Below, one piece after another: positions 2,619 to 43,445 of a stretch of 52,002 nucleotides of DNA (position 1 is its first letter; every line of letters begins with the position of its first letter). Under the pieces are notes generated by a model. It saw only the letters and a list, made by a program, of their open reading frames with translations. It ran no database searches and had not been told where the DNA came from. The stretch lies in IMG/VR virus record IMGVR_UViG_3300029610_000240; one strand, written 5' to 3'. The translations under genes and the position numbers were made by a program. This DNA comes from a virus. Taxonomy: Duplodnaviria > Heunggongvirae > Uroviricota > Caudoviricetes.

Positions 2619-2807
2619 TATAAATACCTCCTGATTCATTGTTTATATGAAAATAAAAAGCATAAAAAAAACAGACATTTTGTCTGCTTGATCTATGCTT
2701 TCATTTTTCATTATTTAATTAAAAAATCTCAGACTTATCCCGATTGATTGGATTCTAATAAACTGTTATTATTATAACATATAAAATATAATTATAAAAC
2801 AGAAAAA

Positions 2808-2948
2808 GAAAAAACCATCGAATAATTTTCGATGGCATCACGGCTGATGGCGGAACACGCCACTTAAACGTTAATTCAGACCCCGTGATTATACAGCACA
2901 GTCGCCTGTCTGCATATAAATTATAATATAATTTTGATTTATATGCAA
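2808..2948 (-). ncRNA. Putative structured small RNA or leader with its own promoter and terminator
   Basis: Minus-strand TTGCAT-N17-TATAAT (2948-2920); GC-richer stems (atcacgg/ccgtgat); terminator ccatcgaa..ttcgatgg followed by a U-tract. Confidence 0.5.
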
Positions 2949-26015: not shown

Positions 26016-26163
26016 TTTATCCTCTTTCAGCAAGAAGACTCCAACTTCTAAGGTGGAAGAGGATATGAGATGATTGGTCATGGACCAGAAATAAGGATTG
26101 TACAGATCATAAATATTATTGTGATCAACGTACAATCTTTTTTTCATATCAAAATTTAGGAAT

Positions 26164-26469
26164 GTGAAAGGAGAAAAATTTGTGATTGGAAACGTTAATG
26201 CATACCTGACTAATCCAGGTAGTAGCAATCCAGAAAAAGTAATTGATTATTATTCAAATTCAGACTTTGAATATAATATTCGCGTAGGAGACTATTGTAA
26301 AGTTACATTAGACAGCAACCTACTTTACTGGATATCAGGCATTGTGGTTGAAATTGATGAAGAAGAGAATGCTTTTTCGATAAAGGATTCTAATGGTAGT
26401 GTCACTAAAATTTCTTGTGACAATATCTGTGATATACAGTCCGGAGAAGAATTGCAGGATTGCTTATAA
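26164..26469 (+). CDS. Hypothetical protein
   Basis: 101-aa acidic ORF. Confidence 0.55.
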   Translation: MKGEKFVIGNVNAYLTNPGSSNPEKVIDYYSNSDFEYNIRVGDYCKVTLDSNLLYWISGIVVEIDEEENAFSIKDSNGSVTKISCDNICDIQSGEELQDCL

Positions 26470-26542
26470 ATCATATAAGAACAGGCTCACAAAAAGGTGA
26501 GATTAAGAAACTATAAAATCAAAAGTAAAGGAGTAAAGAAGT

Positions 26543-27139
26543 ATGTTAGAAACAGAATTTTTATTTTTTCAGGGAATGAAGAAAAGAATTGACCAGAGAA
26601 TCAGTGAAGGAAATTACGATGAGGCAGCAGTCAGTATGCAGAAATGCATGGAGTACATATTAAATAGTCTTGATGGTAGAAACAATGATTATCAGAAAGT
26701 TTGTGTATTGTTTGAAGTTCAGGCAAGGGTTATAGAAAATCAGCCTCAATACCCTTTTTATTGGCATGAATGGGAAACAGTCATTAACTATTGTGATCAG
26801 CAGATGCATTTGCAAGGAAAACCAATTGATTTAGAACAGTTAAAATCAGATACAGTGATTGCACATCAAATGTTTGAAAAAATAGTACAAGATTATCTCA
26901 ATCATGGAGACATTGTTATTTCTAATAAACTTAACAATGAACATAGATCAGAAAATCAAAGACCTCAACGAAAAACTAATTGGCAATCACCCGAAACGAA
27001 AATCATTCATCTAGCAGAACCTTCCATGCAAGAAAGATTCAATCGTGCATGGAAAAAAGTAAATGATGAAGAGGCGGCAGCAGGTGAGACAGAAAAAGGA
27101 GTTCTTGAAGGAGCAATTAAATGCATGATGAAAAAATAA
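26543..27139 (+). CDS. Hypothetical protein
   Basis: AAGGAG RBS; 198 aa. Confidence 0.7.
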   Translation: MLETEFLFFQGMKKRIDQRISEGNYDEAAVSMQKCMEYILNSLDGRNNDYQKVCVLFEVQARVIENQPQYPFYWHEWETVINYCDQQMHLQGKPIDLEQLKSDTVIAHQMFEKIVQDYLNHGDIVISNKLNNEHRSENQRPQRKTNWQSPETKIIHLAEPSMQERFNRAWKKVNDEEAAAGETEKGVLEGAIKCMMKK

Positions 27140-27158
27140 AGAAAGGAAAGGCATATCT

Positions 27159-28532
27159 ATGTGTAAAAAGGTAGAAACAAATGAAAATTTCTTTTCACTA
27201 GGAGAAGTTTTAGTTAGAGAAATTAGTCCAGAACTATTAAAACATGAATCCGAAACAGGAGATATTCTTGGATGTAATGCAACAGGAGAAAAAATTTTAA
27301 CGACAACAGGATATGGGAACCTAAATGTAAGAAGCAGCAATTTGTCTGACAGGGAACCATTGATTGATTTTGCACGAAATCAGATATATCAGAGAATACG
27401 AAGAGGTGATTCCATGATAATCATTGATCCAGAAAGAAGACTCCATACCAGAGAAATGTGGATCTACTTAACAATTCATGGATATTGTGTAGATAGTTAT
27501 GATCTTGACTGCATGGATGGATCATGCTGTTTTAATTGCTTATCTGGAGTTGATAAAGAATTAAGAAAAGAAGATTTAGATCTAATCCAAAGGATCGCAG
27601 ATGATATTATCGATGATCAGCGACATAACGCTCCCTTTGCAGTCGATAAAATTTCTAAGATATTGTTATCTGCAGTTATGATAGCTGCGATTACAGAGAT
27701 GGAGGAAAAAGATCGCAACATGGTTGAAATTGCAACAATCTTTCGATTAGGAGTTTCAGGTGTCATGTTAGATAAAATCCTTCATGTAATGTTTGATGAG
27801 TTAGATACTTCTCATCCTGGTAAGAAATTATTTGAGATTTACAGCGAAGCACCTGTTGAAATTAAGTTATATGCAATTCAAAGGGTTGCTGATGCATTGA
27901 AAGTGTATGAAGATTATATAAGTGAAAACTTTAAGCTTCATCAATACGATATGGCAATGCCAGTTAAACAGAAATGTGTATTGTTTGTAACACCAGGAAA
28001 AGCTGCACAGAATAAGGTTTTGTTTAGTGCTTTTATGGAAAAGTTATATGATACGATGATGGCAGCAGCTGACCTAAATCCAAAACATCCAAAGGTTCAG
28101 GTTGATCTCTTTGATTATCCATTACATGGAGTTATTGAAGGCTTAAGTGATTATATAAAGAATGGAAATGATAAGGGGATTTTTACTTCTCTTTATACAG
28201 AATGTAAGGATATTGAAACAATTGACCAGGGAGGGTTTATGGAGCATGTCAGTGATATATATGATCATTGCAAAATAGACGTTCTGATCGAAGATTCAGA
28301 TTCTTCCCTGCATTACACACATAAATGTGGAAATACAATCATCGGAGAAGAACCAAAGATTCCAGGAATGTCATGTCATTCTAATGATCCAAAATATCAT
28401 GAGATTATAAAATGCAAAGATAATGAAGATGCAATCGAATGCCATTGTTATATGTACAGATCAGAGAATCATCCTTATCCGATTCCAGAAAATACAGAGG
28501 ACTTATTAACGATGTATAATAAACGGAGATAA
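27159..28532 (+). CDS. Degenerate soluble VirD4-like protein
   Basis: Close paralogue of 24285 (identical NMVEIATIFRLGVSGVMLDKILHVMF); no Walker A. Confidence 0.75.
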   Translation: MCKKVETNENFFSLGEVLVREISPELLKHESETGDILGCNATGEKILTTTGYGNLNVRSSNLSDREPLIDFARNQIYQRIRRGDSMIIIDPERRLHTREMWIYLTIHGYCVDSYDLDCMDGSCCFNCLSGVDKELRKEDLDLIQRIADDIIDDQRHNAPFAVDKISKILLSAVMIAAITEMEEKDRNMVEIATIFRLGVSGVMLDKILHVMFDELDTSHPGKKLFEIYSEAPVEIKLYAIQRVADALKVYEDYISENFKLHQYDMAMPVKQKCVLFVTPGKAAQNKVLFSAFMEKLYDTMMAAADLNPKHPKVQVDLFDYPLHGVIEGLSDYIKNGNDKGIFTSLYTECKDIETIDQGGFMEHVSDIYDHCKIDVLIEDSDSSLHYTHKCGNTIIGEEPKIPGMSCHSNDPKYHEIIKCKDNEDAIECHCYMYRSENHPYPIPENTEDLLTMYNKRR

Positions 28533-28625
28533 CCAAATACCAATATAAAAATAGCGGTCTTTTCCTTTCGTTAGGTAAACTACCGCTATTCTTATATTGG
28601 GAGATAATACATAAGGAGTATTGAC

Positions 28626-29564
28626 ATGAAAAAAGATAATATAAAGCAAAATTTCCGTAAACCGGTTGGACGTGATCTGGAAATCGTATCAGAAGATATG
28701 CTGAAAGAGAAAGATGTGACAGGGAACATCATTGGATATGACAAGTTATATAATCTCATTATCTTACAGAGGAAGAATGGAAATTTATATGTTGAAAGTG
28801 GAGCGGGGAAAAATCCGATTTATGATTTTGAGAGAAATCTGATTTATCAAAGTGTAAGAAGGGAAGATTCCATTGTGATCACTGATCCGGAAAGAGAAAT
28901 CTGCACAGAACAAATGCAAGATTATCTAATGAAGCATGGATATGCTATTAAAATCTACAATGCGGAAAGTATGAGAAAAATACAGGATATGATATCTGTA
29001 GATTCTCTTACAAAAGAAAAAACAATCTGGTTTATCGTTACCAGACAATATCATAAGGATCAGTCCGTATTTCGTACATTTATGGGAAATTTGTATAAAT
29101 CTCTGATCATATCTGCTGAAAATGCAAAAATGCGAAGCAATATTCAAATGATTCTTTTTGGATATCCGATGTATGGAAGAATTGAAGGAATTCTTGAATA
29201 TATGGAACATGGAAAAGCAGCAGGGATTTATACGGCTATATGTACGAAAGACTGGATAATGCGTGGCCCGGCAGATAGAGAATGGTTGAAAATCAAAAAG
29301 GACAATGAAAAGTACAAAATATGTCGAAACAGTGACATTACCATGTATGTTGGATTACGTGGATTTTTTGATATTGATGATGGTGAGAGTGATCCATGGA
29401 AGGATAAGACATACGAAGATTTTTATATTGGCGGCTATTTTGTTTCAAGATATGAGCAAGATGCTGGTATTTATTATAAGAATTCCAAAGGCGAAAAAGT
29501 AGAAGATGCCGGATGTAATCAATATATGTCTAAAAAGAATCCCTACAGAATGCAGGAAGCATGA
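28626..29564 (+). CDS. Degenerate, internally shortened VirD4-like protein
   Basis: GNIIGY, RNLIYQSVRREDSIVITDPERE and IQMILFGYP motifs; helical middle region absent. Confidence 0.7.
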   Translation: MKKDNIKQNFRKPVGRDLEIVSEDMLKEKDVTGNIIGYDKLYNLIILQRKNGNLYVESGAGKNPIYDFERNLIYQSVRREDSIVITDPEREICTEQMQDYLMKHGYAIKIYNAESMRKIQDMISVDSLTKEKTIWFIVTRQYHKDQSVFRTFMGNLYKSLIISAENAKMRSNIQMILFGYPMYGRIEGILEYMEHGKAAGIYTAICTKDWIMRGPADREWLKIKKDNEKYKICRNSDITMYVGLRGFFDIDDGESDPWKDKTYEDFYIGGYFVSRYEQDAGIYYKNSKGEKVEDAGCNQYMSKKNPYRMQEA

Positions 29565-29616
29565 TTTAGTGATCATCGAACTTAAGAAGACAGCAGAATT
29601 CAGAAAGGAATTAGAA

Positions 29617-30000
29617 ATGTTAAGTAATAAGGTAAAAAAAATAATGAATTTGGGTCCACACTTCCATATCTGTGATGTATCTGAAATCACAGAAGATCAT
29701 ATCCATTTGGAAAGTTGGAACCAGGATATTAAAAAAGAAGAATTCATTGAGATTGCACAGTTGATCGAAACGGATGGATATGACGTTGAAGGATTTGAGT
29801 TGATCGAGATTCCACATCCGAAAGTCTTTTGTTTCGCTAACTACGAAAAAGAAGAATATTTCGATGTTATAAAGTTGAATGGCAAATGGCAGTTTTCTTA
29901 TTTAGGATATGCCAAAGATGATGGTAATTCTAAAACTTTGGCTAATTTTTCAGCAACTTCCATTACAGAGGCTGTTGAGAAGTATCTGGAGTCTTGGTAA
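29617..30000 (+). CDS. Hypothetical protein homologous to the C-terminal domain of ORF 24285
   Basis: Shared DGYD.EGF.L.E.PHP.V.CF.N..FDV..W.FSYLGY..SI.EA.EKY motif. Confidence 0.7.
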   Translation: MLSNKVKKIMNLGPHFHICDVSEITEDHIHLESWNQDIKKEEFIEIAQLIETDGYDVEGFELIEIPHPKVFCFANYEKEEYFDVIKLNGKWQFSYLGYAKDDGNSKTLANFSATSITEAVEKYLESW

Positions 30001-30105
30001 TGTTAACTATCAATTTATAAAAATGAATGATAAAGAACAGTTATAAAATATGCAGGCAAAAACCAGTGGTTTGTCATGGGTTCAGTTAGAAAGAGAGGTA
30101 ACATA

Positions 30106-30705
30106 ATGCATGGTGAAGAAGTGATAAATGAGTTAGGTGAAGAAATATCCAAAGGAAAAGGATGTATCGTGTTTGATTTTGCATGTTATTTTCCATATGT
30201 GCAGCAAAATCTTCTCATATTTAACTTCAACTTAGGGAAGAAAGAATTGGAACCATATAAACATAATCATCGATATCCAAATAAAGATTATGTGACAATA
30301 TCTAAGAAAATGGGAAGAAGAGTGAGTAGAATCGGGTATCCAGTTTTTGTGAATCTTAATGAAGAGTATTTCTTTATACTTGAAATCGAAGTTGGAATAA
30401 AGGACTATAAAACAGCAAAACTTGGTTTTCCTGTAATTGTAAAGCTTACAGAGGAAAAACCTGTATGCAACCTGGGATTTCGTTTCGATTTCGATGCAGC
30501 AACATTTCAATTTGAAAGCTATTATGAGCATGAAAATGATGGTATCATCGGACATAGACATACAATTTGGACCAATAAGAAGGATCATAATATTGAAAAT
30601 GCAATCGTTGTAACACCTCTAATTCAAGACTATTCGAAGAATGGTGTATATGTAGCAGAAGTATTAACTCCGCATCCACAAACATTTGAACATTTTATGT
30701 GTTGA
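30106..30705 (+). CDS. Hypothetical protein
   Basis: GAGAGG RBS; about 199 aa. Confidence 0.7.
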   Translation: MHGEEVINELGEEISKGKGCIVFDFACYFPYVQQNLLIFNFNLGKKELEPYKHNHRYPNKDYVTISKKMGRRVSRIGYPVFVNLNEEYFFILEIEVGIKDYKTAKLGFPVIVKLTEEKPVCNLGFRFDFDAATFQFESYYEHENDGIIGHRHTIWTNKKDHNIENAIVVTPLIQDYSKNGVYVAEVLTPHPQTFEHFMC

Positions 30706-30787
30706 GAAAAAATAAAAAGGCTTGGAAAATCATTCCGAGTCTTTTTTGTATATGTAATTTTCATGAAGTAGTAAAGGAGACAGCAGA

Positions 30788-32290
30788 ATGGATAATAAGA
30801 TTATTATATCAAAATCAAAGTTGATAAAGAGTTTAAACTTTTCCGAACCCAATAGGCTTATTTTAGGAACACCTGGTGAAGGACAACCTATACATTGGAA
30901 ACGTGAAATAATAATGGATGAATATGCCAATATCGGGGTTGCAACAATTTCAGATAACGATAAATGGATAGTAATAAACAGCGATTCCAACGAGCTTGCT
31001 TTTGTACCAAAAGATGAAAACGATACGGAACTTGTGATCTGCAAAAATGTTTGTTTGAAAAAAGACGGAGAAGATACTCATGTTCTATTGATTTTTCAAA
31101 AAAGTGGTGAATTATTGTCTAAGGCAAGAAAATATATTAAAAGTAATAATGATAGGTTTTATAATTTAGCATTGGATCTGCTGCCAGGTGTAAAAGAGCA
31201 AATCAATCAAGAAAGTGATATGGAAGTGCAGCAGTTGATCAATAAGATTTTGCAAGTGGAATCCGAAGAAGAATTGTCTTTATATGATCGAATAATCGCA
31301 AGATTACTTCAAAGTATAATCCTTTATTTCTTGGAAACAGGAAGAAACGATGGACTGGCAATCAGGATATTAGACACATTGCTGATAAAAGATGTAGATG
31401 TAATGAATCTATCATTTATAGGGTTTAAAAATGACAGCGAAGCAATGAAACAATGGAATGTTCTGACTGAAACATTAGATCGTCATATGCTGAAAAGTAT
31501 ATGGGATAATGCTACCAAGTATGCTTTAGAATATATGATAAAGAATGTAATGAAATTGGAACAATATAAAAAAGAACATACCGTATTATATATAACTGGT
31601 CCGGAAATGAGTTCAGATCTTTATATGTGGTTATGTACGATTATGACAATGGATAAATTTATACAGGGATGGGAAGATTGTCCTAACTATTCTGAATATC
31701 ACGAATATTTAAGAGAAAGATTCTCAAAAAGAAAGAAAAATGACCCATTATCTTGTTTTCTTAAATCTGAGAATATCAGGATCGAACATATTGTTTTTGC
31801 GGATCAGATGAAAAATGCAGATCGTCATGTTTCAGAACAGACTATCAATAAACTGATAAAGAATATGAAAGATACCATTTGGGAAGATTTATTGGATGAT
31901 TGGGTAATTTGGAAAGTTTGTGATTTTGAAAATTATAAAGGGATTGCTAATGCGAGATATTCTTGTAAGAAAATAGGATTTAGTAAATACATCGCATCGA
32001 TCAGGAAAGAAAATTTACAGGAAAAACAGGAAAGAATCGCCAACATGATAAGCATAAAAGAAGAGAAGAAAATAAGAGAAAGTGCAGATACTTTTAATCA
32101 ATATGTTGGATGTGAAGACATACTTTTAATACGAACATCTGTACCATTTCCTTATATGCGTTATTATGTGCATGAATTAAAACAACATGCAGTGATTGTT
32201 GAAGCTAAGCCAGATTTCTTTAATTATTTATATTATATGGATATCTATATTAAAATAAAAAGTATCGATGAAGGAAATTGTGAATGCTGA
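30788..32290 (+). CDS. Hypothetical protein, possibly a highly degenerate VirD4-like remnant
   Basis: AAGGAG RBS; NRLILGTPGEGQ resembles a broken Walker A. Confidence 0.6.
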   Translation: MDNKIIISKSKLIKSLNFSEPNRLILGTPGEGQPIHWKREIIMDEYANIGVATISDNDKWIVINSDSNELAFVPKDENDTELVICKNVCLKKDGEDTHVLLIFQKSGELLSKARKYIKSNNDRFYNLALDLLPGVKEQINQESDMEVQQLINKILQVESEEELSLYDRIIARLLQSIILYFLETGRNDGLAIRILDTLLIKDVDVMNLSFIGFKNDSEAMKQWNVLTETLDRHMLKSIWDNATKYALEYMIKNVMKLEQYKKEHTVLYITGPEMSSDLYMWLCTIMTMDKFIQGWEDCPNYSEYHEYLRERFSKRKKNDPLSCFLKSENIRIEHIVFADQMKNADRHVSEQTINKLIKNMKDTIWEDLLDDWVIWKVCDFENYKGIANARYSCKKIGFSKYIASIRKENLQEKQERIANMISIKEEKKIRESADTFNQYVGCEDILLIRTSVPFPYMRYYVHELKQHAVIVEAKPDFFNYLYYMDIYIKIKSIDEGNCEC

Positions 32291-32499
32291 AAAAGATGTT
32301 ATTAATTAAACAAAATAAATCATAAAAAGTTTTCTGCATTTTATGTGTAATTTGTGCTATAAACATATGTTTGTTATAATTGTAGTAGTTAATTACAATT
32401 TTCATATTATGTGCATTAAGGATGGAAAGGAGAAGTGTATTTCAAATGTTGTAGCTATAAATTTACACACTCAAAAATTGATTGTTAAGGAAAGAAAAA

Positions 32500-33048
32500 A
32501 TGAATGAACATGTAAAAAAACGAGAAGCAACTATTAACCCTGAAATATTACCAGAAAAATTAAGTGTGATCATAAAAGATGAAGATGGAAATCTGTATGA
32601 ATCTACAAAAGATAATCTGAGACAAAAAGGATATATAATTAAAGAATTAGATTTTAAAAAATTCATAAATTCTGATACTGATATTCAAAGACAGATTGAA
32701 GATATAAAAACGATTCGATCAGAAATATTAGAAAACGCTACTGCAGAAATTGAGAGTATTGATTTTTTGCAAAGGGCAAGTGATAATTTAAAAAGCGAAG
32801 AAAATCCGAATGAAGAACAGATTGAAATGTTACTTCCATCACTTCTTTTATTACACATGGAAATGAGTAACTACTTAAGAGAGGAAGCGGAATGGTCACA
32901 ATTATTAAATAACAAAACTGCTTTATACGTAATAGGTCGAACTTGTGATCATGGAGAATATTCTGTATTGTATGCAATATTAAGTACATATTACGAAATG
33001 ATAATGAAAAATCATATCGTGTTTATTACAGATGGTAACATTAAATAG
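32500..33048 (+). CDS. Hypothetical protein with a VirD4-like fragment
   Basis: SVIIKDEDGNLYE..L..KGY.IK.LDF resembles the VirD4 S.I.TDPKGE..GY segment. Confidence 0.55.
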   Translation: MNEHVKKREATINPEILPEKLSVIIKDEDGNLYESTKDNLRQKGYIIKELDFKKFINSDTDIQRQIEDIKTIRSEILENATAEIESIDFLQRASDNLKSEENPNEEQIEMLLPSLLLLHMEMSNYLREEAEWSQLLNNKTALYVIGRTCDHGEYSVLYAILSTYYEMIMKNHIVFITDGNIK

Positions 33049-33110: not shown

Positions 33111-33416
33111 ACAAGATAAATGTCTAAGAATTACAGTTATCATCTAAAACAGCGATTACTTAATATTATAATATAATTTAAATAAAAAAAAACTTGGTTT
33201 ATAAAACATAATTTTTTATTGCAAAAGGAGATAAACTTAATCATTATTTCTAGCAGTGATCATTTTTGATCGCTGCTTTTTTCTTTGTCCAAATTTAAAG
33301 AACAAGTCCGTGTCAGAGACGGAAGTTCCGGTCGGAACAGCAACTAATCAATCGAAGGTTCCATGGAAGGAGGTCTAAAAGAATCTTCACAGGAACAGAA
33401 AGGAAGGACAAAGAAC

Positions 33417-34785
33417 ATGAAATTTAATGATCAAAAAGAAGTGGAGATCAAAAGTACAAAGAAAAAGGAGGAAAAATCAGAAGAAAAGAAAAAGTTGGCA
33501 GCAGGAGATGTTAAAGATGCTCTTGTTGGCGGTGTGAAAGGATTTTATACCGTAAAAGACAAAAAATTACGGAGAAAAAGAATCCTTCTCACAATAGGAG
33601 AATTGTTTCTGGTCTATATATCAGGAATGATCAGTGTGAGTTATCAACCGGCGAAGCTGTTTGGAGAAAAAGATTACAGTTTTTTTAATTGTATTGGATC
33701 ATTTTTCTCATTTGTGGGAATCGCAATCTTCATCTTGTCTAATGTAGTGGCATATTTTGCGTTCCACTGGTTTCTTGAAAAATCAGGGCGTGGAGAAGAT
33801 TATCGGATCAGTAAGAACGGAACTTACGGAACAGCAAAGTTATTAAATGACACAGAAGATGAAGCAGAAGCTTTAAAGAGGATTCCTATCGATCAGCTGA
33901 ATGATCCGGAGATCGATGGAAACATTCTTGGATACATGGAAGATACGAAAGAAGTCATTGTGAAGGATGTTCATGGAAATGCTAACCGAAACATCGCGGT
34001 ATGCGGAGGCCCTGGTACCGGTAAATCACGTACTCTGGTACGTAACATCATCTTCCAGTGTGTAAGACGTGGAGAGTCTATCTTTATCACGGACCCTAAA
34101 GGTGAAATGGCCGAAAGTATGGCAAAGTATCTGAAAAAGAATGATTATATCGTAAAATACTATAATCTAAAGAACTTTGAAGCTTCTGATTCCTTCAACT
34201 GTTTGCAGGGACTGAATAACGAAGAGGGACATGCTTTTATTAATGTACTTGCTGATATTATCATGAAGAATACAGCAAGTATGTCCGGATCTGGTGGAAA
34301 CGCAAATGCGGCACTGAATCTTTTGATTGCATTGATGCTGTTCGTTGTAACAGAATTACCGGAAGAAAACCAGAACATGGTAGAACTCTATAATCTGATC
34401 ACGTTAACAAATCCAAAAGTATTGGATGCGATCTTTGATGGATTGGATGCAACACATCCAGCAAAGAAACCATATCTGATCTATGCTCAGTCTTCTGAAA
34501 ACTTCCGTTCCAATATTACAGCAGACGTTGCAACAAGACTGTTAGTATATGCTCAGGAAGGTGTTCAAAGTATTTCAATTCACGATGAGATCGATCTGAC
34601 ATTACCAGGAACAAAAAAATGTGCTTACTTTATCATTACACCGGATCAGAACTCTGCGTATGATTTCATGGCTTCATTATTTCAAGCGGTCGCTTATAAT
34701 AAGCTCGTCAAATATGCAGATGATAAAGCAGAAGGTGGAATCTTACCAGTCAAAGTGCAGATGTTGTTAGATGAATTCCCAAATA
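33417..34785 (+). CDS. virD4: VirD4/TraG type IV coupling protein, exon 1
   Basis: Two TMs, GTYGTA, Walker A GGPGTGKS, TDPKGE, ending at Walker B LLDEFPN just before the intron start GTGTG. Confidence 0.9.
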
Positions 34786-35566
34786 GTGTGACGTGTTCCG
34801 CATCACAAAACGGTAGCAATAACCGACAAAAATGCGGCGTAATTGTATTTATTCAATATAAATCCGATTGCGAACTATATAACCAATTGTTTCAAATGAT
34901 GGGGTAACGCCCGGAAGGGAACACGCTAAACCTTCGAATAGCGTCAAGTGATGTAGACATTTGAGGTTATAAGCTCGGAGAAGTCATATGAAGTATACCC
35001 TAACGTACAGACGAGGAAACATTTCCAGAGGTGGAGATTGTGTACGACAGTGTGGGCGGGGTTTTCCTATGGTTAGAATGACTTATGATAGTCTGACAAA
35101 GTTTCGAATGTACGGCTCTATAGGAATGACCTGTAGAAATGCAGGAGCATCAGATCAAATGATGTGTGTGCGAGGAAGAGTAAAATTTGTTTGTGCTGAA
35201 ATTCCTTGTATGTTTACAGGACATACGTTTCATAAGAAATGCACACAGGGTTAAAGAAACGACCTAAGGGAAAACAATGCTAGGTTATATGGAACACGGA
35301 AAGCTGCGGACAAGAGAACTGGCTATACAGTGAAAAAGTATCTTGGTTATGACGAAAGGCAGCAAATGAAACTGCTGCTATAAGTATATTTATCGTAGTG
35401 AGAGCAGAGGCACAGTACCGATGAAACAGTGATAACAAGCTGCGGAGGGATAGCCTCAAGCCGGTATAAATAATATCGGTGGAACGCCGTATGACGGGAA
35501 ACTGTCATGTACGGTGCGGGCCAGGGGAAAAATCCGAGATATTATCAGAGATTTACCTATTGGCAT
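34786..35566 (+). mobile_element. ORF-less group II intron (781 nt; class B-like 3' end)
   Basis: 5' GTGTG; domain V GAACGCCGTATGACGGGAAACTGTCATGTACGGTGC (about 35482-35517); domain VI ending ..TTACCTATTGGCAT; removal restores the virD4 frame. Confidence 0.92.
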
Positions 35567-36453
35567 TTGGAGAAATCCCAGATTTTGGAAAGAAAATTTC
35601 AACAGTCCGAAGTCGTGGTATTGCAACAACCATTATCTTTCAGGCAATCACGCAGATGCAGAACCGATATCCGAATGGATTATGGGAAGAGATTCTTGCA
35701 GCCTGTGATACAAGCCTGTTCTTAGGATGTAATGACGAAACCAGTGCGAAATATTATTCTGAAAAGAGTGGTATTTCGACTATTGAAGTTGGTACAGAAC
35801 AGAGATCCTTAAAAACGCTTCGAATCACGGATTACACACCAGAAGTACGTCAATCAGAAGGAGAAGGAAAGCGTTACGTGAATAATCCAGATGAATTACA
35901 GCGATTCAAATATAAAGATGAATTGATCTTCTGCAAAGGATTTAATGTATTCCGTTGTAATAAGTTTGATTATGAGCTTCATCCAGAAGCAAAGAAGTTA
36001 GAATATGAGAAAGCAATTGAGCATGTGCCGGAATGGAGAAAGAGAGAAGAACCATACCAGCTGTATGTTCTAAGATATATTCCTGGTACAGAAGCATTTG
36101 ACCGAAAAGCATTTGCTGCAGCTACTGGAGATAACAAAGAACATACGATGAGCAGTTCTACATCAAAAGGAGCAAAAAAGAATACGATTAATAAACCGCC
36201 TAAAAATAAGAAGAGCAAGAGAGGTTCCTCTTGGGCAAATGGCATTAGTGGCCAGCAGCAGATGAATTACAATTTAGACAAATCAGATGAAACAGAAGAA
36301 GTTACACCAACAATCTCAGATTCTGAAAATGATGCTATAAATACAAATGTTGATTTTAACGAGGCTGAAAATGGTGCAGAAAATGTAAATGATCAGACTC
36401 CAGATTTCGAGGATACTTCTGTAGAAGAAATGATGAATCAATATGGTTTGTAG
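35567..36453 (+). CDS. virD4: VirD4/TraG type IV coupling protein, exon 2
   Basis: (I)GEIPDF..ISTVRSRGI..QAITQMQNRY..CDT.LFLGCND motifs; spliced product 751 aa. Confidence 0.9.
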
Positions 36454-36967: not shown

Positions 36968-37534
36968 TTGTTAATTATGCCACCTGAAAAAGAGCAAGCA
37001 GTTCTCGTGCAACAAACGACTCAGAAAAAAGAATCAAACAAAAAGAAATCAAAGGATAAGAAAGATAAGTTGTTTCATGATACAAAGAAATTCTTACAAA
37101 GTTATCGAAGATTGGAATTATCCTTGAAATATTCTAAGGCGATGCAAACGAAACGTTTGGCCGCGAATGATATGAGTTTTGAATGGGAACTGCGAGATGA
37201 CGAAATAGAATTTAATGATATGGTTTTGCAAGAAGCCATTTCAGCACTGCATTGTCTAAAACAGATGCCGGAGATGGGACGTGTATGGTATCATTTGCTA
37301 CAAATGAAATATTTTGACGTTAGACCCTACAAAATGTCAGACGATGCGATCATCACAGCATTGCAAGAAGCTGGGTTATTTTCTGATATTTCTAAAACGA
37401 CATTTTACAGATATCAAAAGAGTGCAATTCGTATGTATGGAGAAATTCTTTGGGGATCTCTCGATAAGAATTCTTCGGTATATAAGAAATTTGTAAAAAT
37501 GATACATTCTCATGATCTTGAGAAACAGATATAG
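36968..37534 (+). CDS. Putative ArpU/sigma region 4-like transcriptional regulator
   Basis: LLQMKYF..I..L..ISKTTFYRYQKSAI..LWG C-terminal HTH pattern. Confidence 0.6.
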   Translation: MLIMPPEKEQAVLVQQTTQKKESNKKKSKDKKDKLFHDTKKFLQSYRRLELSLKYSKAMQTKRLAANDMSFEWELRDDEIEFNDMVLQEAISALHCLKQMPEMGRVWYHLLQMKYFDVRPYKMSDDAIITALQEAGLFSDISKTTFYRYQKSAIRMYGEILWGSLDKNSSVYKKFVKMIHSHDLEKQI

Positions 37535-37539
37535 GTAAA

Positions 37540-37697
37540 TATGTAAACTATATGATTCCAGTGGAACTATTTAATCATGATATAATTAACACTGGATTTT
37601 AGGACGATGTAAAGTGATATGATTACCAGTGGTAAAAGTTGTTGACCATTCAAAAACCGACGTTTTAGAACAAAGTAAAAACATATGATTCCAATGG
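37540..37697 (+). CRISPR. Degenerate type II-A-like mini-array A (partial repeat, 2 spacers, 2 repeats)
   Basis: Repeats end at 37564 (partial), span 37596-37632 and span 37662-37697 (GTTTTAGAACAAAGTAAAAACATATGATTCCAATGG); spacers about 31 and 29 nt. Confidence 0.7.
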
Positions 37698-37771
37698 GTC
37701 AAATTACATAGTGCGTAAAAATAAGAGAATAATCGAAATAACCTACAAAGGTAGGATCTGCAGTGTGGCAG
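37698..37771 (+). ncRNA. tracrRNA-like module A
   Basis: TTACATAGTGCGTAAAAATAAG anti-repeat and nexus; hairpins CCTAC-AAAG-GTAGG and CTGC..GCAG. Confidence 0.7.
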
Positions 37772-37807
37772 AAAATAACAATGAAAAAAGAAAGAGTGTG
37801 AGATACA

Positions 37808-38130
37808 TGCTTTTTAAACGATATAAATATTTAGAATTAGAAAAAACAGATATCGGAAATGATGAGCATAATTATTATGAAACGGTCTGGTATATCCGTG
37901 CTTATAATAATAAACGTGCTTATGATAATCGAAATAACACAGAAACATCAAAGAGTCTTGACAGTAATGGTAAGAAAAAAGAAAAAAAGAAATCGCGGAT
38001 TATTGTAAAGATAATTCGAGATTCTTATGGTAATGTGACAAGGGTATTTGTAGAACCTAAAGCAAAAAAGAAAAAAGAAGTTGTCGATATGGCAGCAGCG
38101 GCATATCAGTCATTGCTTGCAATGGAATGA
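37808..38130 (+). CDS. Hypothetical basic protein
   Basis: Lys-rich ORF between cassettes A and B; start uncertain because the longer version overlaps the tracr-like RNA. Confidence 0.4.
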
Positions 38131-38210
38131 TTGTCAGCCGGAAAGTAATGATATTTACTGTAGGATTTTAAAATTGTGTAACGAGAATGTCTTTAAATAT
38201 CAAGTACAAG

Positions 38211-38356
38211 AGATGATTCCAATGGTCATACATTTATGGTAAGACGGGTGCGGGGTTTTGGAACAGTGTAAAATTAGATGATTCCAGTGGCCCATTCAGC
38301 GAGAGAAATTCCAACATTATGTTTTGGAACAGTGTAAAATTAGATGATTCCAGTGG
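38211..38356 (+). CRISPR. Type II-A-like mini-array B
   Basis: Identical 36-nt repeats GTTTTGGAACAGTGTAAAATTAGATGATTCCAGTGG at 38255-38290 and 38321-38356; partial repeat ending 38225; spacers 29 and 30 nt. Confidence 0.85.
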
Positions 38357-38429
38357 GTTAAATTACACAGCGAGTAAAAATAAGAAATAATCGAAACAAC
38401 CTACAAAGGTAGGATCTGCCGAGTGGCAG
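38357..38429 (+). ncRNA. tracrRNA-like module B
   Basis: TTACACAGCGAGTAAAAATAAG..TCG; hairpins CCTAC-AAAG-GTAGG and CTGCC-GAGT-GGCAG; same layout as Streptococcus II-A tracrRNA 3' ends. Confidence 0.8.
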
Positions 38430-38462
38430 TAGTGGAAATAATAGTTAGAGAGGAGTTGTAAA

Positions 38463-41400
38463 ATGAGGAAAAATGTGAAGCGTACAATTGCTGTTTTAAG
38501 TGCTGTATGTATGCTTCCGTGTCCGCAGGTAGCAAATGTTGCCGTCATGGCACAAAATGTATCTGTTGGAAGTTCTATCGGAGCAAAGACATTGAAACAG
38601 TCTTTGCAAACATCAACGAATTTTGAAACTGCATCAGGGAAACGACAGGAAGTAAAAGAAAATAAGATAGAAGATTCATATGATATAACATATGGTGATT
38701 CTATTACTTTTTTTGTTTCTAAGACAAAAATACCTGATCAAGATCAAACAGATAATTCTGGTAATGAAGATGATCAGAAACAGGATGATGGGCAGAAAGA
38801 TTCAGAAACAGATGTGATACCTGATTATGAGGTTCCAGATACTATTAATGGTTTTTCCTTTAATAAGGAAGAAACAGATGATGGATATCAACTTACATTT
38901 ACTGCAAATGAAGCAATGAGAAGTGCTGCAATCAAGATCAAAGGGCAGGATGTCGTTTTGAAAACTAAAAAGAGAAAACTGACTGCAAAAGCATCCGTCA
39001 AGAATAAAGTCTATGATGGAACGACCAATGCAGAATACGAGTCCTCTCCAAGTATTCAAAACGTGTTGGATAGTGATGAAAATCAGTTTTATTTCCGTTA
39101 TAAAAATCCAACCTTTGAAAAGAAAAATGTTGGAGAACAACAGGTTTCTCCAATTTCTATCAATTTATCAAGTGACAACTATGAAATTGATGATATCAGC
39201 GGACTGAAAGCAACGATTGAACAGAAAGAGATCACGACCAGTACGATCAAGATCAAGAGTAAAGTTTATGATGGTACAACAACTGCAGAGTATGCAAACA
39301 AAGTAACATTGCTCGGAGTAATATCCGGAGATGATGTACAATTAAATGTTCCAACACCATCATATGATACAAAAAATGTTGGAACTGACAAGAAGATCGT
39401 ATTTGATGGTGATTTTTCAATTGAGGGTACAGACAGTGCCAATTACCGATTGAAAGAAATTTCAGAAGTAACAGGAACGATTGAGAGAGCGAAGCTTGTA
39501 TATCGGGCGAAAGATCAAACCAGAAAATATGGCGAAGCAAATCCAAAACTTACTTATGAAGTAAAAGGTTTTGTTGCAGGTGATCAGCAAAGTGATTTTA
39601 ACGATCCGACATTGACATTGGATGTTCCAAAACTTACGAGTTTAGGAAAACATGAGGGAGTCATTAAAATCTCAGGTGTGAACTTGCCAGAATATTATGA
39701 TGTAACTTATGAAAGCGGAGATTTATACGTTGAAGCAAATGATATTCATGAAAATGAACATTATAAATTAACAAAGCCGGATGGAAAGAATGGTTGGTTT
39801 ACGAAAAAGAATTTTGTGATTGAGCCAATTCAGGGAGAAACCAGTGGTTATGATCTGGTTTCAACATCCAAAGATGGACCATGGAAAAAAACACTTGCTT
39901 ATACAGAAGATACAAAGAAAAAGAATGTTTCCTTTTATCTAAAAGATAGCAGCAATGGTGCAATTTCCAAAGTTGGAGAAGAGTCTTATAAGATTGATAA
40001 GACAGCTCCGGAAGTTGAGAATATTGCAATTGATTTTGTAAAAGGATACCAGAGTACAAAGAAATCTGGACCATTTAAATATTTCTTTGATACGATCGCA
40101 AAGATTGGAATTACATCTCATGATGATACCAGTGGAGTTGCAAGGATTGAATATCATACAGTAGATGAAGGAACACAATCAAAAGAAAAAACACAAGACG
40201 GTTCCAAAGCAACATTTGAGATTACTCCGAATTTCAAGGGTAACATTTATGCGAGAGCGATCGATGAAGCTGGAAATGTATCAGAAGAATACAAATCAGC
40301 CGGAACGATCCTAGAGAATAATGGAAAACACAGTACAACCAGTTCAATTCATATCTTACAGGAGACACAGGAAAAGAAATATTATAATCATGATATTTAC
40401 CTTGGACTTCAAGCAGAAGATACTTATTCCGGAATTGGGAATATATCATATGAAGCCGGGGCAGTGAATTCGAAAGAATCTTCCTATGATGATATGAAGT
40501 ATGAATATAAGAAGGATCATGTAAGGATTGATGCTTCTCAGAATAACAAAAACGGTGTAGAAGCTAAATTTACAATGGTGGATAACACCGGACATAAGAG
40601 TACGGTCCGAAAGAAATTCAACATTGATGTTTCCAAGCCGGAGATCACAATCTCTTATGACAATAATCAGTCTGAGGGAAAATACTTCAAAAAGAATCGA
40701 ACAGCAACGATCACGATCAAAGAAAGGAACTTTGACAGTAATAAGACACTTGTTTACTTGACAAAAAATGGTGTAAAAACAAGATTGAAATCCAATTTTG
40801 TCAGTGATGGAGTATTACACAGCAGAGAAGATGGCAGTCAGTATTATATTTATCAAATGAATGTAGTATTTGATCAGGACGGTGAATATTCCTTAACAGC
40901 AGCAAGTACCGATCTTGCCGGAAACAAGAACCTTCCAGTCACTTATGTTGGTACTCATACAGACAGCTTTGTGATCGATAAAACAAAGCCTGTAGCGAAA
41001 ATCTCTTTTGATAATAATTCTGTGAAGAATGAAAAATATTACAAAGCGGATCGAATTGCAACTATTCGGGTAACAGAGAAAAATTTTAAAGAACTGAATG
41101 TCTCAACAAATGGAAAGAAAAGTGGATGGAGCAGTCATGGAAATGAACATGTGATGACTGTTACATTTAATGAAGATAAAGAATATCATCTTTCTATTGC
41201 AGGACAGGATCTTGCCGGAAATGTTTTAGAGAAACAAAGTGCAAAACCTTTTATTGTTGACAAGACAAAGCCTAAGATCGATCAGGTAACACCAAGTGAT
41301 TCCAGTGCGAATACTGGAGCTGTTACTTGTGGATATACATTAACAGATAAGTACCTTGACAAAGGCAGTGATCAGCTAGTCGGAGAAATGAAAGGTCGTA

Positions 41401-42323
41401 AGTTTAAAGTAAATGAAAAACAGAAAGTGGAGAACGGATACAAAGTAACTTATCAGCAGATTCCAAATGCAATGGAAAATGATGATTATTATACATTCGT
41501 GATTCAGTCAGAAGATAAAGCCGGAAATATTTCAAAAAAATCCATTCACTTTACGGTTAATCGATATGGTTCTGTTTATCATTTATCATCTTATGCAAAA
41601 TCTATTAATGGTACTTATGTAAAAGATGCTGATAAGATTGTCTTGGAAGAGATTAATCCAGATCAATTATCAGATTGCAATTTAAAAGTTGTAAGAGATA
41701 ATGATCCGATTGCTTTGAAAAATGAAGATGCATCGATTGAGAAGAAACATGATAAGTGGTACAAAGTTACCTACACAGTCAATGCTTCGGCACTGAAAGA
41801 GGAAGGTACTTATCGTATCATTACATCTTCTAAGGATACGGCAAAGCATACATCTTCCAATGATATGTCAAAGAAAAAAGCGTCAATCAGTTTTGGGGTT
41901 GATACAACAAAACCAAACATCTTAATCTCAAACATTGAAGGTGGTAAGGTTTATGCCCAGGATGGAAGAACCGCAACAGTTCTTGTAAAAGACAACTTGC
42001 TGTTACAGAGTGCGAAAGTTTATGTCAATGATAATCTGATAAAGGAATACGATGAAAAAGTTCCTGAAAAGATTGACATTCCTCTGGATCAGAAAGATGA
42101 AGCTCAAAGCATTCATGTAATTGTGAAGGATGCCGCGGGAAATGAATCTGAAATTACGATGGATAACATTTATGTTACAACAAACCTATGGATCAGATTT
42201 ATTCACAGTGTGCCGGCGATGGCAACTGCAGGTGGTGTATCACTTGCTGTGATTCTGGCAGCAGTTATTGTTTTACGAAAAAGAATAAAAGCAAAACCAT
42301 CGGTTGAGGATGATGAAAAATAA
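38463..42323 (+). CDS. Large membrane-anchored surface protein with YDG, MBG and Ig-like repeats
   Basis: Signal peptide; two KVYDGTT repeats; R.YGEANP motif; repeated D.AGN..IDKT.P; C-terminal TM. Confidence 0.85.
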   Translation: MRKNVKRTIAVLSAVCMLPCPQVANVAVMAQNVSVGSSIGAKTLKQSLQTSTNFETASGKRQEVKENKIEDSYDITYGDSITFFVSKTKIPDQDQTDNSGNEDDQKQDDGQKDSETDVIPDYEVPDTINGFSFNKEETDDGYQLTFTANEAMRSAAIKIKGQDVVLKTKKRKLTAKASVKNKVYDGTTNAEYESSPSIQNVLDSDENQFYFRYKNPTFEKKNVGEQQVSPISINLSSDNYEIDDISGLKATIEQKEITTSTIKIKSKVYDGTTTAEYANKVTLLGVISGDDVQLNVPTPSYDTKNVGTDKKIVFDGDFSIEGTDSANYRLKEISEVTGTIERAKLVYRAKDQTRKYGEANPKLTYEVKGFVAGDQQSDFNDPTLTLDVPKLTSLGKHEGVIKISGVNLPEYYDVTYESGDLYVEANDIHENEHYKLTKPDGKNGWFTKKNFVIEPIQGETSGYDLVSTSKDGPWKKTLAYTEDTKKKNVSFYLKDSSNGAISKVGEESYKIDKTAPEVENIAIDFVKGYQSTKKSGPFKYFFDTIAKIGITSHDDTSGVARIEYHTVDEGTQSKEKTQDGSKATFEITPNFKGNIYARAIDEAGNVSEEYKSAGTILENNGKHSTTSSIHILQETQEKKYYNHDIYLGLQAEDTYSGIGNISYEAGAVNSKESSYDDMKYEYKKDHVRIDASQNNKNGVEAKFTMVDNTGHKSTVRKKFNIDVSKPEITISYDNNQSEGKYFKKNRTATITIKERNFDSNKTLVYLTKNGVKTRLKSNFVSDGVLHSREDGSQYYIYQMNVVFDQDGEYSLTAASTDLAGNKNLPVTYVGTHTDSFVIDKTKPVAKISFDNNSVKNEKYYKADRIATIRVTEKNFKELNVSTNGKKSGWSSHGNEHVMTVTFNEDKEYHLSIAGQDLAGNVLEKQSAKPFIVDKTKPKIDQVTPSDSSANTGAVTCGYTLTDKYLDKGSDQLVGEMKGRKFKVNEKQKVENGYKVTYQQIPNAMENDDYYTFVIQSEDKAGNISKKSIHFTVNRYGSVYHLSSYAKSINGTYVKDADKIVLEEINPDQLSDCNLKVVRDNDPIALKNEDASIEKKHDKWYKVTYTVNASALKEEGTYRIITSSKDTAKHTSSNDMSKKKASISFGVDTTKPNILISNIEGGKVYAQDGRTATVLVKDNLLLQSAKVYVNDNLIKEYDEKVPEKIDIPLDQKDEAQSIHVIVKDAAGNESEITMDNIYVTTNLWIRFIHSVPAMATAGGVSLAVILAAVIVLRKRIKAKPSVEDDEK

Positions 42324-42474
42324 AATCAGATGATTCCAAAGGCGCCCATCCCCTTATTAAGCAAACCATGTAGTTTTAGAACTGTGTGAAATCAGATGAT
42401 TCCAAAGGGCCTATTAAATTCTACAATTCAGAAATGGAGTTTTAGAACTGTGTGAAATCAGATGATTCCAAAGG
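42323..42474 (+). CRISPR. Type II-A-like mini-array C
   Basis: Identical 36-nt repeats GTTTTAGAACTGTGTGAAATCAGATGATTCCAAAGG at 42373-42408 and 42439-42474; 20-nt partial repeat ending 42342; two 30-nt spacers. Confidence 0.85.
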
Positions 42475-42548
42475 TCCAAATTACACAGTGAGTAAAAATA
42501 AGAATTTTATCGAATTAATTTACTAAGGTAAAAGCTGTCGGCGATAGC
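42475..42548 (+). ncRNA. tracrRNA-like module C
   Basis: TTACACAGT pairs with repeat ACTGTGTGA; GAGTAAAAATAAG; hairpins TTTAC-TAAG-GTAAA and GCTGTC-GGC-GATAGC. Confidence 0.8.
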
Positions 42549-42589
42549 AATTTATAAATTAAGGACTTAACTTTGTTCTTTTATTGAAC

Positions 42590-43231
42590 ATGAAAATAAA
42601 AAATATCGAAAAGAGGGGGAATCGAAAAGAGGGTGTAAACTTGATCATTGAAGTTTTAGAAAAAGACGTGATTCCAAAAGGAAATCGAAAGCTTTTAAAT
42701 AGAAGAAACTTTTACAAACAGCATTTAACTTCTTTAGGTTTTTCTCATGTAAGAGGAAAATATGTGATACAACTGGATGATGAAAATGAGATTGAAACAA
42801 TGAAAACATTACTTGAATCTTATCGGACAAAATACCAGAGTTATCCAAACAGTTATCTTCGTTCAGGAGATTACCGAAAGAAGTTTTTTGATAAAAATCG
42901 TCCAATCTTCAAAGATTATTATATATGTGCATACTGCGGAAGATTCTTAAAAAAGAAAGATGTAACAGTTGATCATATCATATCAATTAGAAAAGCTCAG
43001 AAATCAAAGATTTTGCAGTTTATTCTTCGATTGGTAAAGATCAACGACATTAATGATGAAAAGAATCTGACCGCTTCATGTGAGACATGTAATAAGAAGA
43101 AAGGACAAAAATTAAGTTTATCTTATGTACTCCGGGGAATTCTCGGTAGAAAGTCATGGTATTGGATTATCTATTATATAGTCATAATTGTTGTTTTGGT
43201 CATTGTAATTTTACAGATTGTCAATCCATGA
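42590..43231 (+). CDS. HNH endonuclease with C-terminal transmembrane helix
   Basis: CAYCG..TVDHII..NL..SCETCNKKKG motif; hydrophobic C-terminus; alternative TTG start at 42641. Confidence 0.85.
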   Translation: MKIKNIEKRGNRKEGVNLIIEVLEKDVIPKGNRKLLNRRNFYKQHLTSLGFSHVRGKYVIQLDDENEIETMKTLLESYRTKYQSYPNSYLRSGDYRKKFFDKNRPIFKDYYICAYCGRFLKKKDVTVDHIISIRKAQKSKILQFILRLVKINDINDEKNLTASCETCNKKKGQKLSLSYVLRGILGRKSWYWIIYYIVIIVVLVIVILQIVNP

Positions 43232-43445
43232 TGAAGAAGTGCATAATATCTTACTTATATTTTATACGAATCCAATAAAAGCAAGAACTGATATTTCTTG
43301 ATTCCCTTGTGACTATGATACATTTATTGGAATTCGTAATTCAAAATAAAAGATATTGTAATCGCCCGTTGAATGCGGGATCTGTCAGGTGATAGAAAAG
43401 GGTATCTATTGTTTTTTATTTTGAAAGGAGGAGGTAGCTCATTAC

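What the first reader, a model, noticed from the sequence alone, without database searches (positions are those of the whole stretch)
37540..42548. Three cas-less CRISPR mini-array/tracrRNA fusion cassettes (natural single-guide RNA modules) on a conjugative element
Seen: three intergenic copies of one layout, [partial repeat]-spacer-repeat-spacer-repeat-[~73-nt module], at 37540-37771, 38211-38429 and 42323-42548. Repeats are 36 nt and start GTTTT(A/G)GAAC, and the six spacers (29-31 nt) are all different. The module starts right after the last repeat and carries an anti-repeat (TTACACAG.GAGTAAAAAT), AAG..TCG and two hairpins. Known: this geometry matches type II-A CRISPR (36-nt repeat, ~30-nt spacer) and the S. 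pyogenes tracrRNA layout (..AAGTTAAAATAAGG nexus, hairpin, GAGT-looped hairpin). Native tracrRNAs are normally transcribed separately beside cas9. No cas9, cas1, cas2 or csn2 is present in the 52 kb. Inference: last spacer + repeat + tracr form one contiguous sgRNA-like transcript that borrows a Cas9 in trans. It could attack competing elements, repress genes or titrate host immunity.
Basis: partly seen in the sequence, partly recalled or inferred. Interest (0 to 1): 0.95.

Follow-up and report, generated by a model that had tools for sequence, protein, structure and literature searches.

The report
Self-updating guide cassettes for dead Cas9
A large transferable DNA element of the gut bacterium Anaerostipes hadrus carries many miniature CRISPR arrays, each joined to its own Cas9 scaffold sequence and varying most at the scaffold end, so the newest spacer would form a ready-made single-guide RNA, likely for a non-cutting Cas9 found on the same element family that would block rival DNA rather than cut it.

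Summary
The three cassettes are real. Each is a type II-A-like mini-array (36-nt repeats, ~30-nt spacers) running straight into a tracrRNA-like module, which Rfam lists as the orphan motif RAGATH-30. Related elements carry about ten more cassettes, each with its own repeat and a covarying anti-repeat. Spacers differ between element copies: the 5'-most are shared and the scaffold-proximal ones mostly unique (27 arrays against 2). The arrays therefore appear to grow at the scaffold end, the reverse of II-A, beside a reversed leader-anchor-like motif. Some carrier isolates have the host's intact II-A locus; others lack it and show the dead Cas9. No cas1 was found on seven element records. Best reading: guides written in trans by a host integrase direct the dead Cas9 to bind and silence invaders. 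No protospacer, transcript or binding was shown. I found no paper describing this.

The parts
37540..37564 (+). C1 truncated 5' (trailer-type) repeat
   Evidence: sequence
37565..37594 (+). C1 spacer 1 (30 nt), also in L005
37595..37632 (+). C1 degenerate middle repeat (38 nt)
37633..37661 (+). C1 spacer 2 (29 nt), guide position
37662..37697 (+). C1 last repeat (36 nt); pairs poorly with its anti-repeat in this allele
37698..37774 (+). C1 linker (GTCAAAT, reversed leader-anchor-like), anti-repeat, nexus, two hairpins; RAGATH-30 hit 37715-37774
38211..38225 (+). C2 truncated 5' repeat
38226..38254 (+). C2 spacer 1 (29 nt), shared 5'-most spacer in other copies
38255..38290 (+). C2 repeat
38291..38320 (+). 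C2 spacer 2 (30 nt), guide position, seen only in the window
38321..38356 (+). C2 last repeat
38357..38432 (+). C2 linker, anti-repeat, nexus, hairpins; RAGATH-30 hit 38374-38432
42323..42342 (+). C3 truncated 5' repeat, beginning at the stop codon of the upstream gene
42343..42372 (+). C3 spacer 1 (30 nt), shared 5'-most spacer
42373..42408 (+). C3 repeat
42409..42438 (+). C3 spacer 2 (30 nt), guide position here, internal in three longer arrays
42439..42474 (+). C3 last repeat
42475..42550 (+). C3 linker, anti-repeat, nexus, hairpins; RAGATH-30 hit 42492-42550

Best explanation
The cassettes are type II-A-derived mini-arrays fused to their own tracrRNA-like scaffolds on a conjugative element of Anaerostipes hadrus, and they likely gain spacers at the scaffold end through a host Cas1-Cas2, so that the newest spacer would form a single-guide RNA that likely loads the element family's nuclease-dead Cas9 and would make it bind and silence incoming phage or rival elements without cutting. 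Shown: the layout, covarying repeat:anti-repeat pairing, spacer turnover concentrated at the scaffold end, a catalytically dead Cas9 among sister cassettes, and no cas1 on the element records. Inferred: transcription (probably read-through from upstream genes), RNase III-independent loading, the integrase, the effector pairing, the targets and silencing. Older spacers would be an archive that returns to guide position by deletion, or could pair with the same anti-repeat.
For: Covariation over 16 cassettes: 86.4% of cells paired against 79.0% shuffled (0/500); 44 cells with both sides changed against 15.4; 4 of 9 upper-stem pairs change on both sides; slid controls give 33-49%. Polarity: in 39 distinct arrays of two or more spacers the 5'-most spacer is shared in 32 and the scaffold-proximal one in 15; first more widely shared in 27, last in 2, 10 ties; no order conflicts; first repeat 13.5 mismatches, penultimate 0.5, over 40 arrays. 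The junction after the last repeat reads TTTGAC on the reverse strand in 12 of 15 cassette types. Canonical leaders end TTTGAG directly before repeat 1 in 9 of 14 clostridial csn2 loci fetched (ATTTGAG in PMC5382924, passages). Dead Cas9 in G775: RuvC-I D to T, RuvC-II E to K, HNH H to Y, RuvC-III H to Q. D to T holds in 46 of 46 stored homologues picked by their N-terminal motif; H to Y in 27 of the 29 that keep the HNH motif. Its cluster has 2,780 members, one named Cas9 [A. hadrus]. Six arrays surround it. G002 starts with the GGGtGRT gene plus an integrase, and G775's cassette region ends in an 83-nt copy of that gene's 3' end. Two window-holding isolates (X12, X17) show contigs whose loose ends match the dead cas9 30/30 nt at two places, and an empty site at the host II-A locus. 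Cas9 nuclease activity is not needed for PAM selection in adaptation (PMC12477760, passages).
Against: No protospacer was found for any spacer, so targets and PAM are unproven. Three 200-220-kb records of the element hold no cas9; all may end before the dead-Cas9 region, but G003 diverges 21 kb past the window without it. Two other window-holding isolates (X1, X7) carry the intact host II-A locus and showed no dead-cas9 pieces, so the host Cas9 may be the only partner there. II-A machinery inserts the PAM-proximal end at the leader junction (bioRxiv 2025.06.12.659244, passages), which would flip guides in these reversed arrays; the integrase is unexplained. The junction is GAC|C, not GAG|G, and the window's C2 and C3 deviate further. 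Arrays are related by descent, so the binomial p (1.6e-6) overstates support. Own repeat is the best partner for only 3 of 16 cassette anti-repeats, and C1 pairs poorly.
Confidence: 0.58

Rival explanations
1. The cassettes mainly load the host's active II-A Cas9 and cut rival elements or phage, like viral mini-arrays that borrow host effectors; the dead Cas9 is an accessory (PAM selector for acquisition) or a relic.
For: The host-species representative G697 has intact cas9-cas1-cas2-csn2, an array and a tracrRNA of similar architecture. X1 and X7 hold both the window and that locus; X4 and X15 show host-like cas9 pieces. Full-length 30-nt spacers suit cleavage.
Against: Cas9 was found in only 1 of 20 genus genomes. 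X12 and X17 lack the locus. Host repeat and lower stem differ from the cassettes. The dead Cas9 is kept full-length in a clade with 73-89% identity.
Confidence: 0.22
2. The RNAs are anti-CRISPR decoys like phage vsgRNAs or Racrs: they sequester host Cas9, and the dead Cas9 soaks up host guides.
For: vsgRNAs of similar fold sequester Cas9 (bioRxiv 2026.06.01.729453; abstract, introduction, results, discussion and method passages read). An inactivated phage Cas9 is proposed to act so (PMC11656645, PMC12669027, passages).
Against: Decoys need no turnover of full-length spacers, yet C2 and C3 show 24 and 38 distinct spacers. No spacer of 104 matched the region upstream of host cas9 by an 11-nt seed. 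Cassettes persist in isolates without the host locus.
Confidence: 0.1
3. The dead Cas9 is a targeting module that recruits a separate element-encoded enzyme (the UvrD helicase among the far cassettes, or the small HNH protein after C3), as DinG does in type IV-A.
For: UvrD lies between cassettes in G775; an HNH ORF follows C3.
Against: No interaction evidence; cassettes sit beside many unrelated genes.
Confidence: 0.07
4. The cassettes are decaying leftovers of duplicated CRISPR loci with no current role.
For: C1 pairs weakly; some modules have no array.
Against: Covariation, invariant scaffold core and ongoing spacer turnover.
Confidence: 0.03

Closest known systems
Type II-A CRISPR-Cas9, ATTTGAG-leader group (PMC5382924; host locus G697)
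   Same: 36-nt repeat, ~30-nt spacer, repeat:anti-repeat lower and upper stem, nexus, 3' hairpins, II-A-type Cas9.
   Different: Anti-repeat is in cis and covers only about repeat nt 1-17 (host duplex spans the whole repeat, -41 kcal/mol); many dispersed arrays with different repeats; growth at the 3' end; no cas1/cas2/csn2; Cas9 catalytically dead.
vsgRNA (bioRxiv 10.64898/2026.06.01.729453) and tracr-L (bioRxiv 10.1101/2020.05.21.102756, search listing only; described in the vsgRNA paper)
   Same: Natural single-guide fold, encoded on a mobile element away from the host cas9.
   Different: Those have one fixed 13-14-nt guide against the cas9 promoter, no array, and mostly sit in prophage Acr islands. 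These have full-length, changing spacers on a conjugative element with its own dead Cas9.
CRISPR-associated IscB, DelIscB (PMC12660989, passages)
   Same: Array, repeat and anti-repeat in one ncRNA.
   Different: IscB nuclease with a large omega-type scaffold, one locus beside the ORF. The two IscBs checked here have their own HEARO RNAs.
Viral CRISPR mini-arrays (PMC11656645; bioRxiv 2023.03.03.530964, passages)
   Same: One to few spacers on a mobile element, no adaptation genes.
   Different: Their repeats copy the host's and carry no fused tracrRNA or element effector.
Type IV-A3 and V-M (Cas12m) plasmid systems; phage II-C2 Cas9 (PMC12669027 and PMC11656645 passages; Benz 2024 seen as a reference title only)
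   Same: Non-cutting effector on a mobile element; spacers acquired in trans (IV-A3).
   Different: Other effector families; II-C2 keeps an apparently active HNH; none has array-tracr fusions.
Rfam RAGATH-30 (RF03055)
   Same: The 59-nt model matches every module.
   Different: Rfam lists it as an sRNA with no CRISPR link in the description returned; it is the nexus-plus-hairpin tail of these scaffolds.

Membership tests
Canonical type II-A CRISPR-Cas | 36-nt repeats, ~30-nt spacers, tracrRNA with anti-repeat, nexus and hairpins | tested here: met
Canonical type II-A CRISPR-Cas | cas9-cas1-cas2-csn2 operon beside the array | tested here: not met
   No cas1 in 7 of 7 element records; none in the window
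Canonical type II-A CRISPR-Cas | Catalytically intact Cas9 | tested here: not met
   Element Cas9 lacks four catalytic residues
Canonical type II-A CRISPR-Cas | New spacers at the 5' leader end | tested here: not met
   27 versus 2 arrays favour the 3' end
vsgRNA / tracr-L | cis repeat:anti-repeat single-guide fold | tested here: met
   Covariation; single-sequence folding supports only C3
vsgRNA / tracr-L | Short fixed guide matching the cas9 promoter; no array | tested here: not met
   Variable 30-nt spacers; 0 of 104 seed matches upstream of host cas9
vsgRNA / tracr-L | Inhibits host Cas9 immunity | not testable with these tools
   needs experiment
Viral CRISPR mini-array | Repeat identical to the host array | tested here: not met
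   Host repeat differs
Viral CRISPR mini-array | Spacers match related mobile elements | tested here: inconclusive
   No protospacer found; overlapping and homologous spacers point to shared foreign targets
CRISPR-associated IscB | IscB ORF adjacent to and served by the array RNA | tested here: not met
   No IscB in the window; two element IscBs have their own HEARO RNAs
RAGATH-30 (RF03055) | Score above the gathering threshold | tested here: met
   70.6-71.5 bits against 59.5

The most novel reading that the evidence does not exclude
A new type II branch: a conjugative element spreads about 18 self-contained guide genes whose leader-anchor is embedded between last repeat and anti-repeat, so each captured spacer becomes a single-guide RNA at once, without RNase III, for a natural dead Cas9 that both selects PAM-correct spacers with a borrowed integrase in reversed polarity and silences invaders: an adaptive natural CRISPRi.
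Probability: 0.4. Interest if true: 0.95.

Novelty: new variant of a known kind. Interest (0 to 1): 0.86.

Why it matters
It would be a natural counterpart of two engineered tools together, the sgRNA and dCas9, with adaptive memory. It gives RAGATH-30 a function. It offers a direct test of what sets spacer orientation in type II adaptation, because II-A repeats appear to grow with II-C polarity. The many naturally covaried scaffolds and a dead Cas9 from a common gut commensal are ready material for guide design and CRISPRi. The protein is named as an ordinary Cas9 endonuclease in public annotation, so it is easy to overlook.

Tried and rejected
Protospacers, none found: INPHARED phages, PLSDB plasmids, IMG/VR exact patterns (48 self only; 67, 73, 98 none; 114 one chance hit), 20 genus genomes by BLAST (109; one search covered only about two spacers through my coordinate slip), 151 and 351 relatives by pattern, 333 kb of genus prophage regions with 113 spacers (4 hits at 7 mismatches against 3 in the reversed control), and the elements themselves. 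PAM: three exact spacer overlaps give 3' flanks GAAAATT, CGAACGT, TAAAACT, sharing AA at positions 3-4, and two consecutive G002 spacers look contiguous in one target. This is post hoc with n=3, so a hint only. GTDB scans: the tight pattern gave 0; the loose one gave 11, all chance on reading; 5 of 401 family genomes had motif hits, chance on reading. RAGATH-30 over cut-off in 0 of 20 genus genomes. Expression: no RNA holder listed. Promoter scan was at chance level and no + strand terminator follows the modules. laid no dead-cas9 contig for any of four isolates, including X12, which shows one, so that blank is uninformative. Rejected: minus-strand reading as Cas12/Cas13 (pairing and Rfam strand fit +); IscB as effector. 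Literature: ten searches found no description; 'RAGATH-30' 0 papers. The Weinberg 2017 supplement could not be read (125; main text has no RAGATH or CRISPR, 130). The vsgRNA supplementary tables are closed and could list some of these modules. Altae-Tran 2021 is not held. Subscription papers are not covered.

Full report
Observation. The repeat-end motif occurs 11 times in the window at one mismatch or fewer, against 0.35 expected. Each module matches Rfam RAGATH-30 above its cut-off. The window is a conjugation region: VirB4-like and VirD4-like ATPases, ArdA, pilins and sortases, and no cas gene among 37 ORFs.

The element. A tight pattern found the cassettes in 6 stretches of two ~200-kb IMG/VR contigs and in 84 metagenome stretches, 80 listed. 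Records G001, G002 and G003 hold 15, 13 and 13 RAGATH-30 matches at E<=0.001; 10 of the 13 in G002 follow a repeat. G002 also encodes DNA polymerase III subunits, SecA/SecY, topoisomerase, three IscBs and TnpBs (124 ORFs scanned). Source names on its proteins point to Anaerostipes hadrus. No cas1 was found in 7 of 7 element records, and no cas9 in G001, G002, G003, G776, G777 or G778.

Structure. Each cassette has its own repeat, and its anti-repeat changes with it. On 16 cassettes from the window, G002 and G775, 86.4% of cells pair (shuffled 79.0%, 0/500). 44 cells change on both sides (shuffled 15.4), including 4 of 9 upper-stem pairs; lower stem and nexus are nearly invariant; slid controls pair 33-49%. 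Two of the five measures did not exceed the shuffles, and the last hairpin paired only 61% in this alignment. Folding of single sequences is weak: z -1.0 to -2.0, only C3 adopting the sgRNA shape. C1 in the window pairs poorly. The anti-repeat covers only about nt 1-17 of the repeat, unlike the full host duplex; that RNase III would not be needed is inference.

Polarity. In 39 distinct C1-C3 arrays with two or more spacers, the 5'-most spacer is shared with another array in 32 and the scaffold-proximal one in 15. It is more widely shared in 27 arrays against 2, with 10 ties and no order conflicts. The 5' repeat is decayed (13.5 mismatches against 0.5 for the penultimate, 40 arrays). Arrays are related, so p=1.6e-6 is optimistic, and my parser undercounts C1. 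Growth at the scaffold end puts the newest spacer in guide position. The linker after the last repeat reads TTTGAC on the reverse strand in 12 of 15 cassette types. Canonical leaders end TTTGAG before repeat 1 in 9 of 14 clostridial loci fetched, the ATTTGAG group of PMC5382924 (passages). The match is one base off at each side of the junction. II-A machinery inserts the PAM-proximal end at the leader junction, and II-C probably the reverse (bioRxiv 2025.06.12.659244, passages). These arrays would need the II-C-like polarity to give usable guides. Three spacer overlaps hint at an A-rich PAM 3' of the guide, but this is post hoc and thin.

The effector. Record G775 has a 1,312-aa Cas9, 36-38% identical to the host's, with six arrays around it (seven Rfam hits). 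RuvC-I D, RuvC-II E, HNH H and RuvC-III H are replaced by T, K, Y and Q (their roles as SpCas9 D10, E762, H840, H983 are recalled). The changes hold across a clade at 73-89% identity, two members keeping the HNH histidine. The cluster has 2,780 members and one carries an A. hadrus name. G002 begins with the GGGtGRT gene and an integrase, and G775's cassette region ends in an 83-nt copy of that gene's 3' end, as two ends of one integrated element would. Against this, G775's left part shares little DNA with G001 or G002, and G001 and G776 abut a different host site. The index of earlier notes puts eight cassettes and a sequence sharing 108 of 110 words with this protein on the window's own contig, 33-56 kb past its end. 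By hand, three of those offsets agree with G775's cassette spacing within about 60 nt, and a fourth is 1.8 kb off. I could not read that DNA.

The host. G697 is 99% identical at the flank gene and has an intact II-A locus with a different repeat; Cas9 was found in 1 of 20 genus genomes. Of four window-holding isolates laid on that locus, X1 and X7 carry it. X12 and X17 have the empty site and contigs matching the dead cas9 exactly at two 30-nt ends. In X12 that contig's depth figure (64) is close to cassette-like contigs (56-62) and about half the chromosomal ones; contig depth is only a weak hint. So cassettes occur with either Cas9.

Mechanism. Most likely (0.58): read-through transcripts fold last spacer + repeat + scaffold into a single guide, the dead Cas9 binds PAM-flanked invader DNA and blocks transcription or replication, and a host integrase adds spacers at the last repeat, possibly with dead Cas9 choosing the PAM (nuclease activity is dispensable for that, PMC12477760, passages). 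Rivals: cutting by host Cas9 (0.22, not exclusive), decoy (0.10), recruitment of a separate enzyme (0.07), relic (0.03). Targets, expression, binding and integrase are all unshown; my protospacer searches were negative.

Comparison and novelty. It works like an sgRNA with dCas9, and like type IV-A3 or V-M systems on plasmids. It fails membership of canonical II-A (no adaptation genes, dead Cas9, reversed growth), of vsgRNA/tracr-L (full-length changing spacers, no cas9-promoter match) and of viral mini-arrays (repeat is not the host's). Array and anti-repeat in one RNA is known from CRISPR-associated IscB (PMC12660989, passages). Ten library searches found no description; the vsgRNA preprint's main text does not mention Anaerostipes, but its tables were closed. 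Earlier notes of this scan already describe the dead-Cas9 cluster; they are not independent support. This report adds three distant cassettes, the polarity count, the reversed leader-like motif and the either-Cas9 pattern among carriers. Verdict: real, a new variant of type II, interest 0.86.

Noticed in passing
window 43340-43398: A fourth, degenerate RAGATH-30-like module with no array, upstream of the pilin gene; its G002 homologue scores 33 bits, below cut-off.
   Followed up: partly
window 33363-36453: The virD4-like gene is split around group II intron remnants (Rfam hits 34870-35066 and 35482-35566) with no RT ORF seen between them.
   Followed up: no
window 42584-43231: 215-aa HNH protein with a C-terminal hydrophobic stretch directly after C3.
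   Followed up: no
window 37807-38130 and 36977-37534: Conserved 107-aa ORF between C1 and C2 and 185-aa ORF before C1, with no Pfam or NCBIfam family, each on at least 1000 contigs.
   Followed up: partly
window 24285-33048: A run of family-less paralogues that resemble the N-terminal part of the VirD4-like protein by eye.
   Followed up: no
window 2804-2920: DUF3800-I RNA on the minus strand.
   Followed up: no
L228 (G406:C16) 230-1437: Orphan type II cas1-cas2 without cas9 or csn2 on a small MobV/serine-recombinase element; the same proteins are named from Campylobacter and Lachnospiraceae. A candidate trans integrase.
   Followed up: partly
P0153-P0168: Sixteen dead-Cas9 variants lack about 150-160 residues spanning the HNH region, with several breakpoints; real deletions or gene-calling artefacts.
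   Followed up: partly
L008 7480-7770: Two consecutive spacers appear contiguous in one target, which C3 spacers of other copies also hit on both strands.
   Followed up: partly
L179 9613: Isolates X1 and X7 have a 2-nt deletion late in host cas1; a 281-aa Cas1 variant is common in its cluster.
   Followed up: no
L186 3328-5144: ORFs with an ATLF-like metallopeptidase domain lie just upstream of the dead cas9; a UvrD lies between the downstream cassettes.
   Followed up: no
L229 (G697:C14): The host also has a type I-like locus with cas4-cas1-cas2 and a long array.
   Followed up: no
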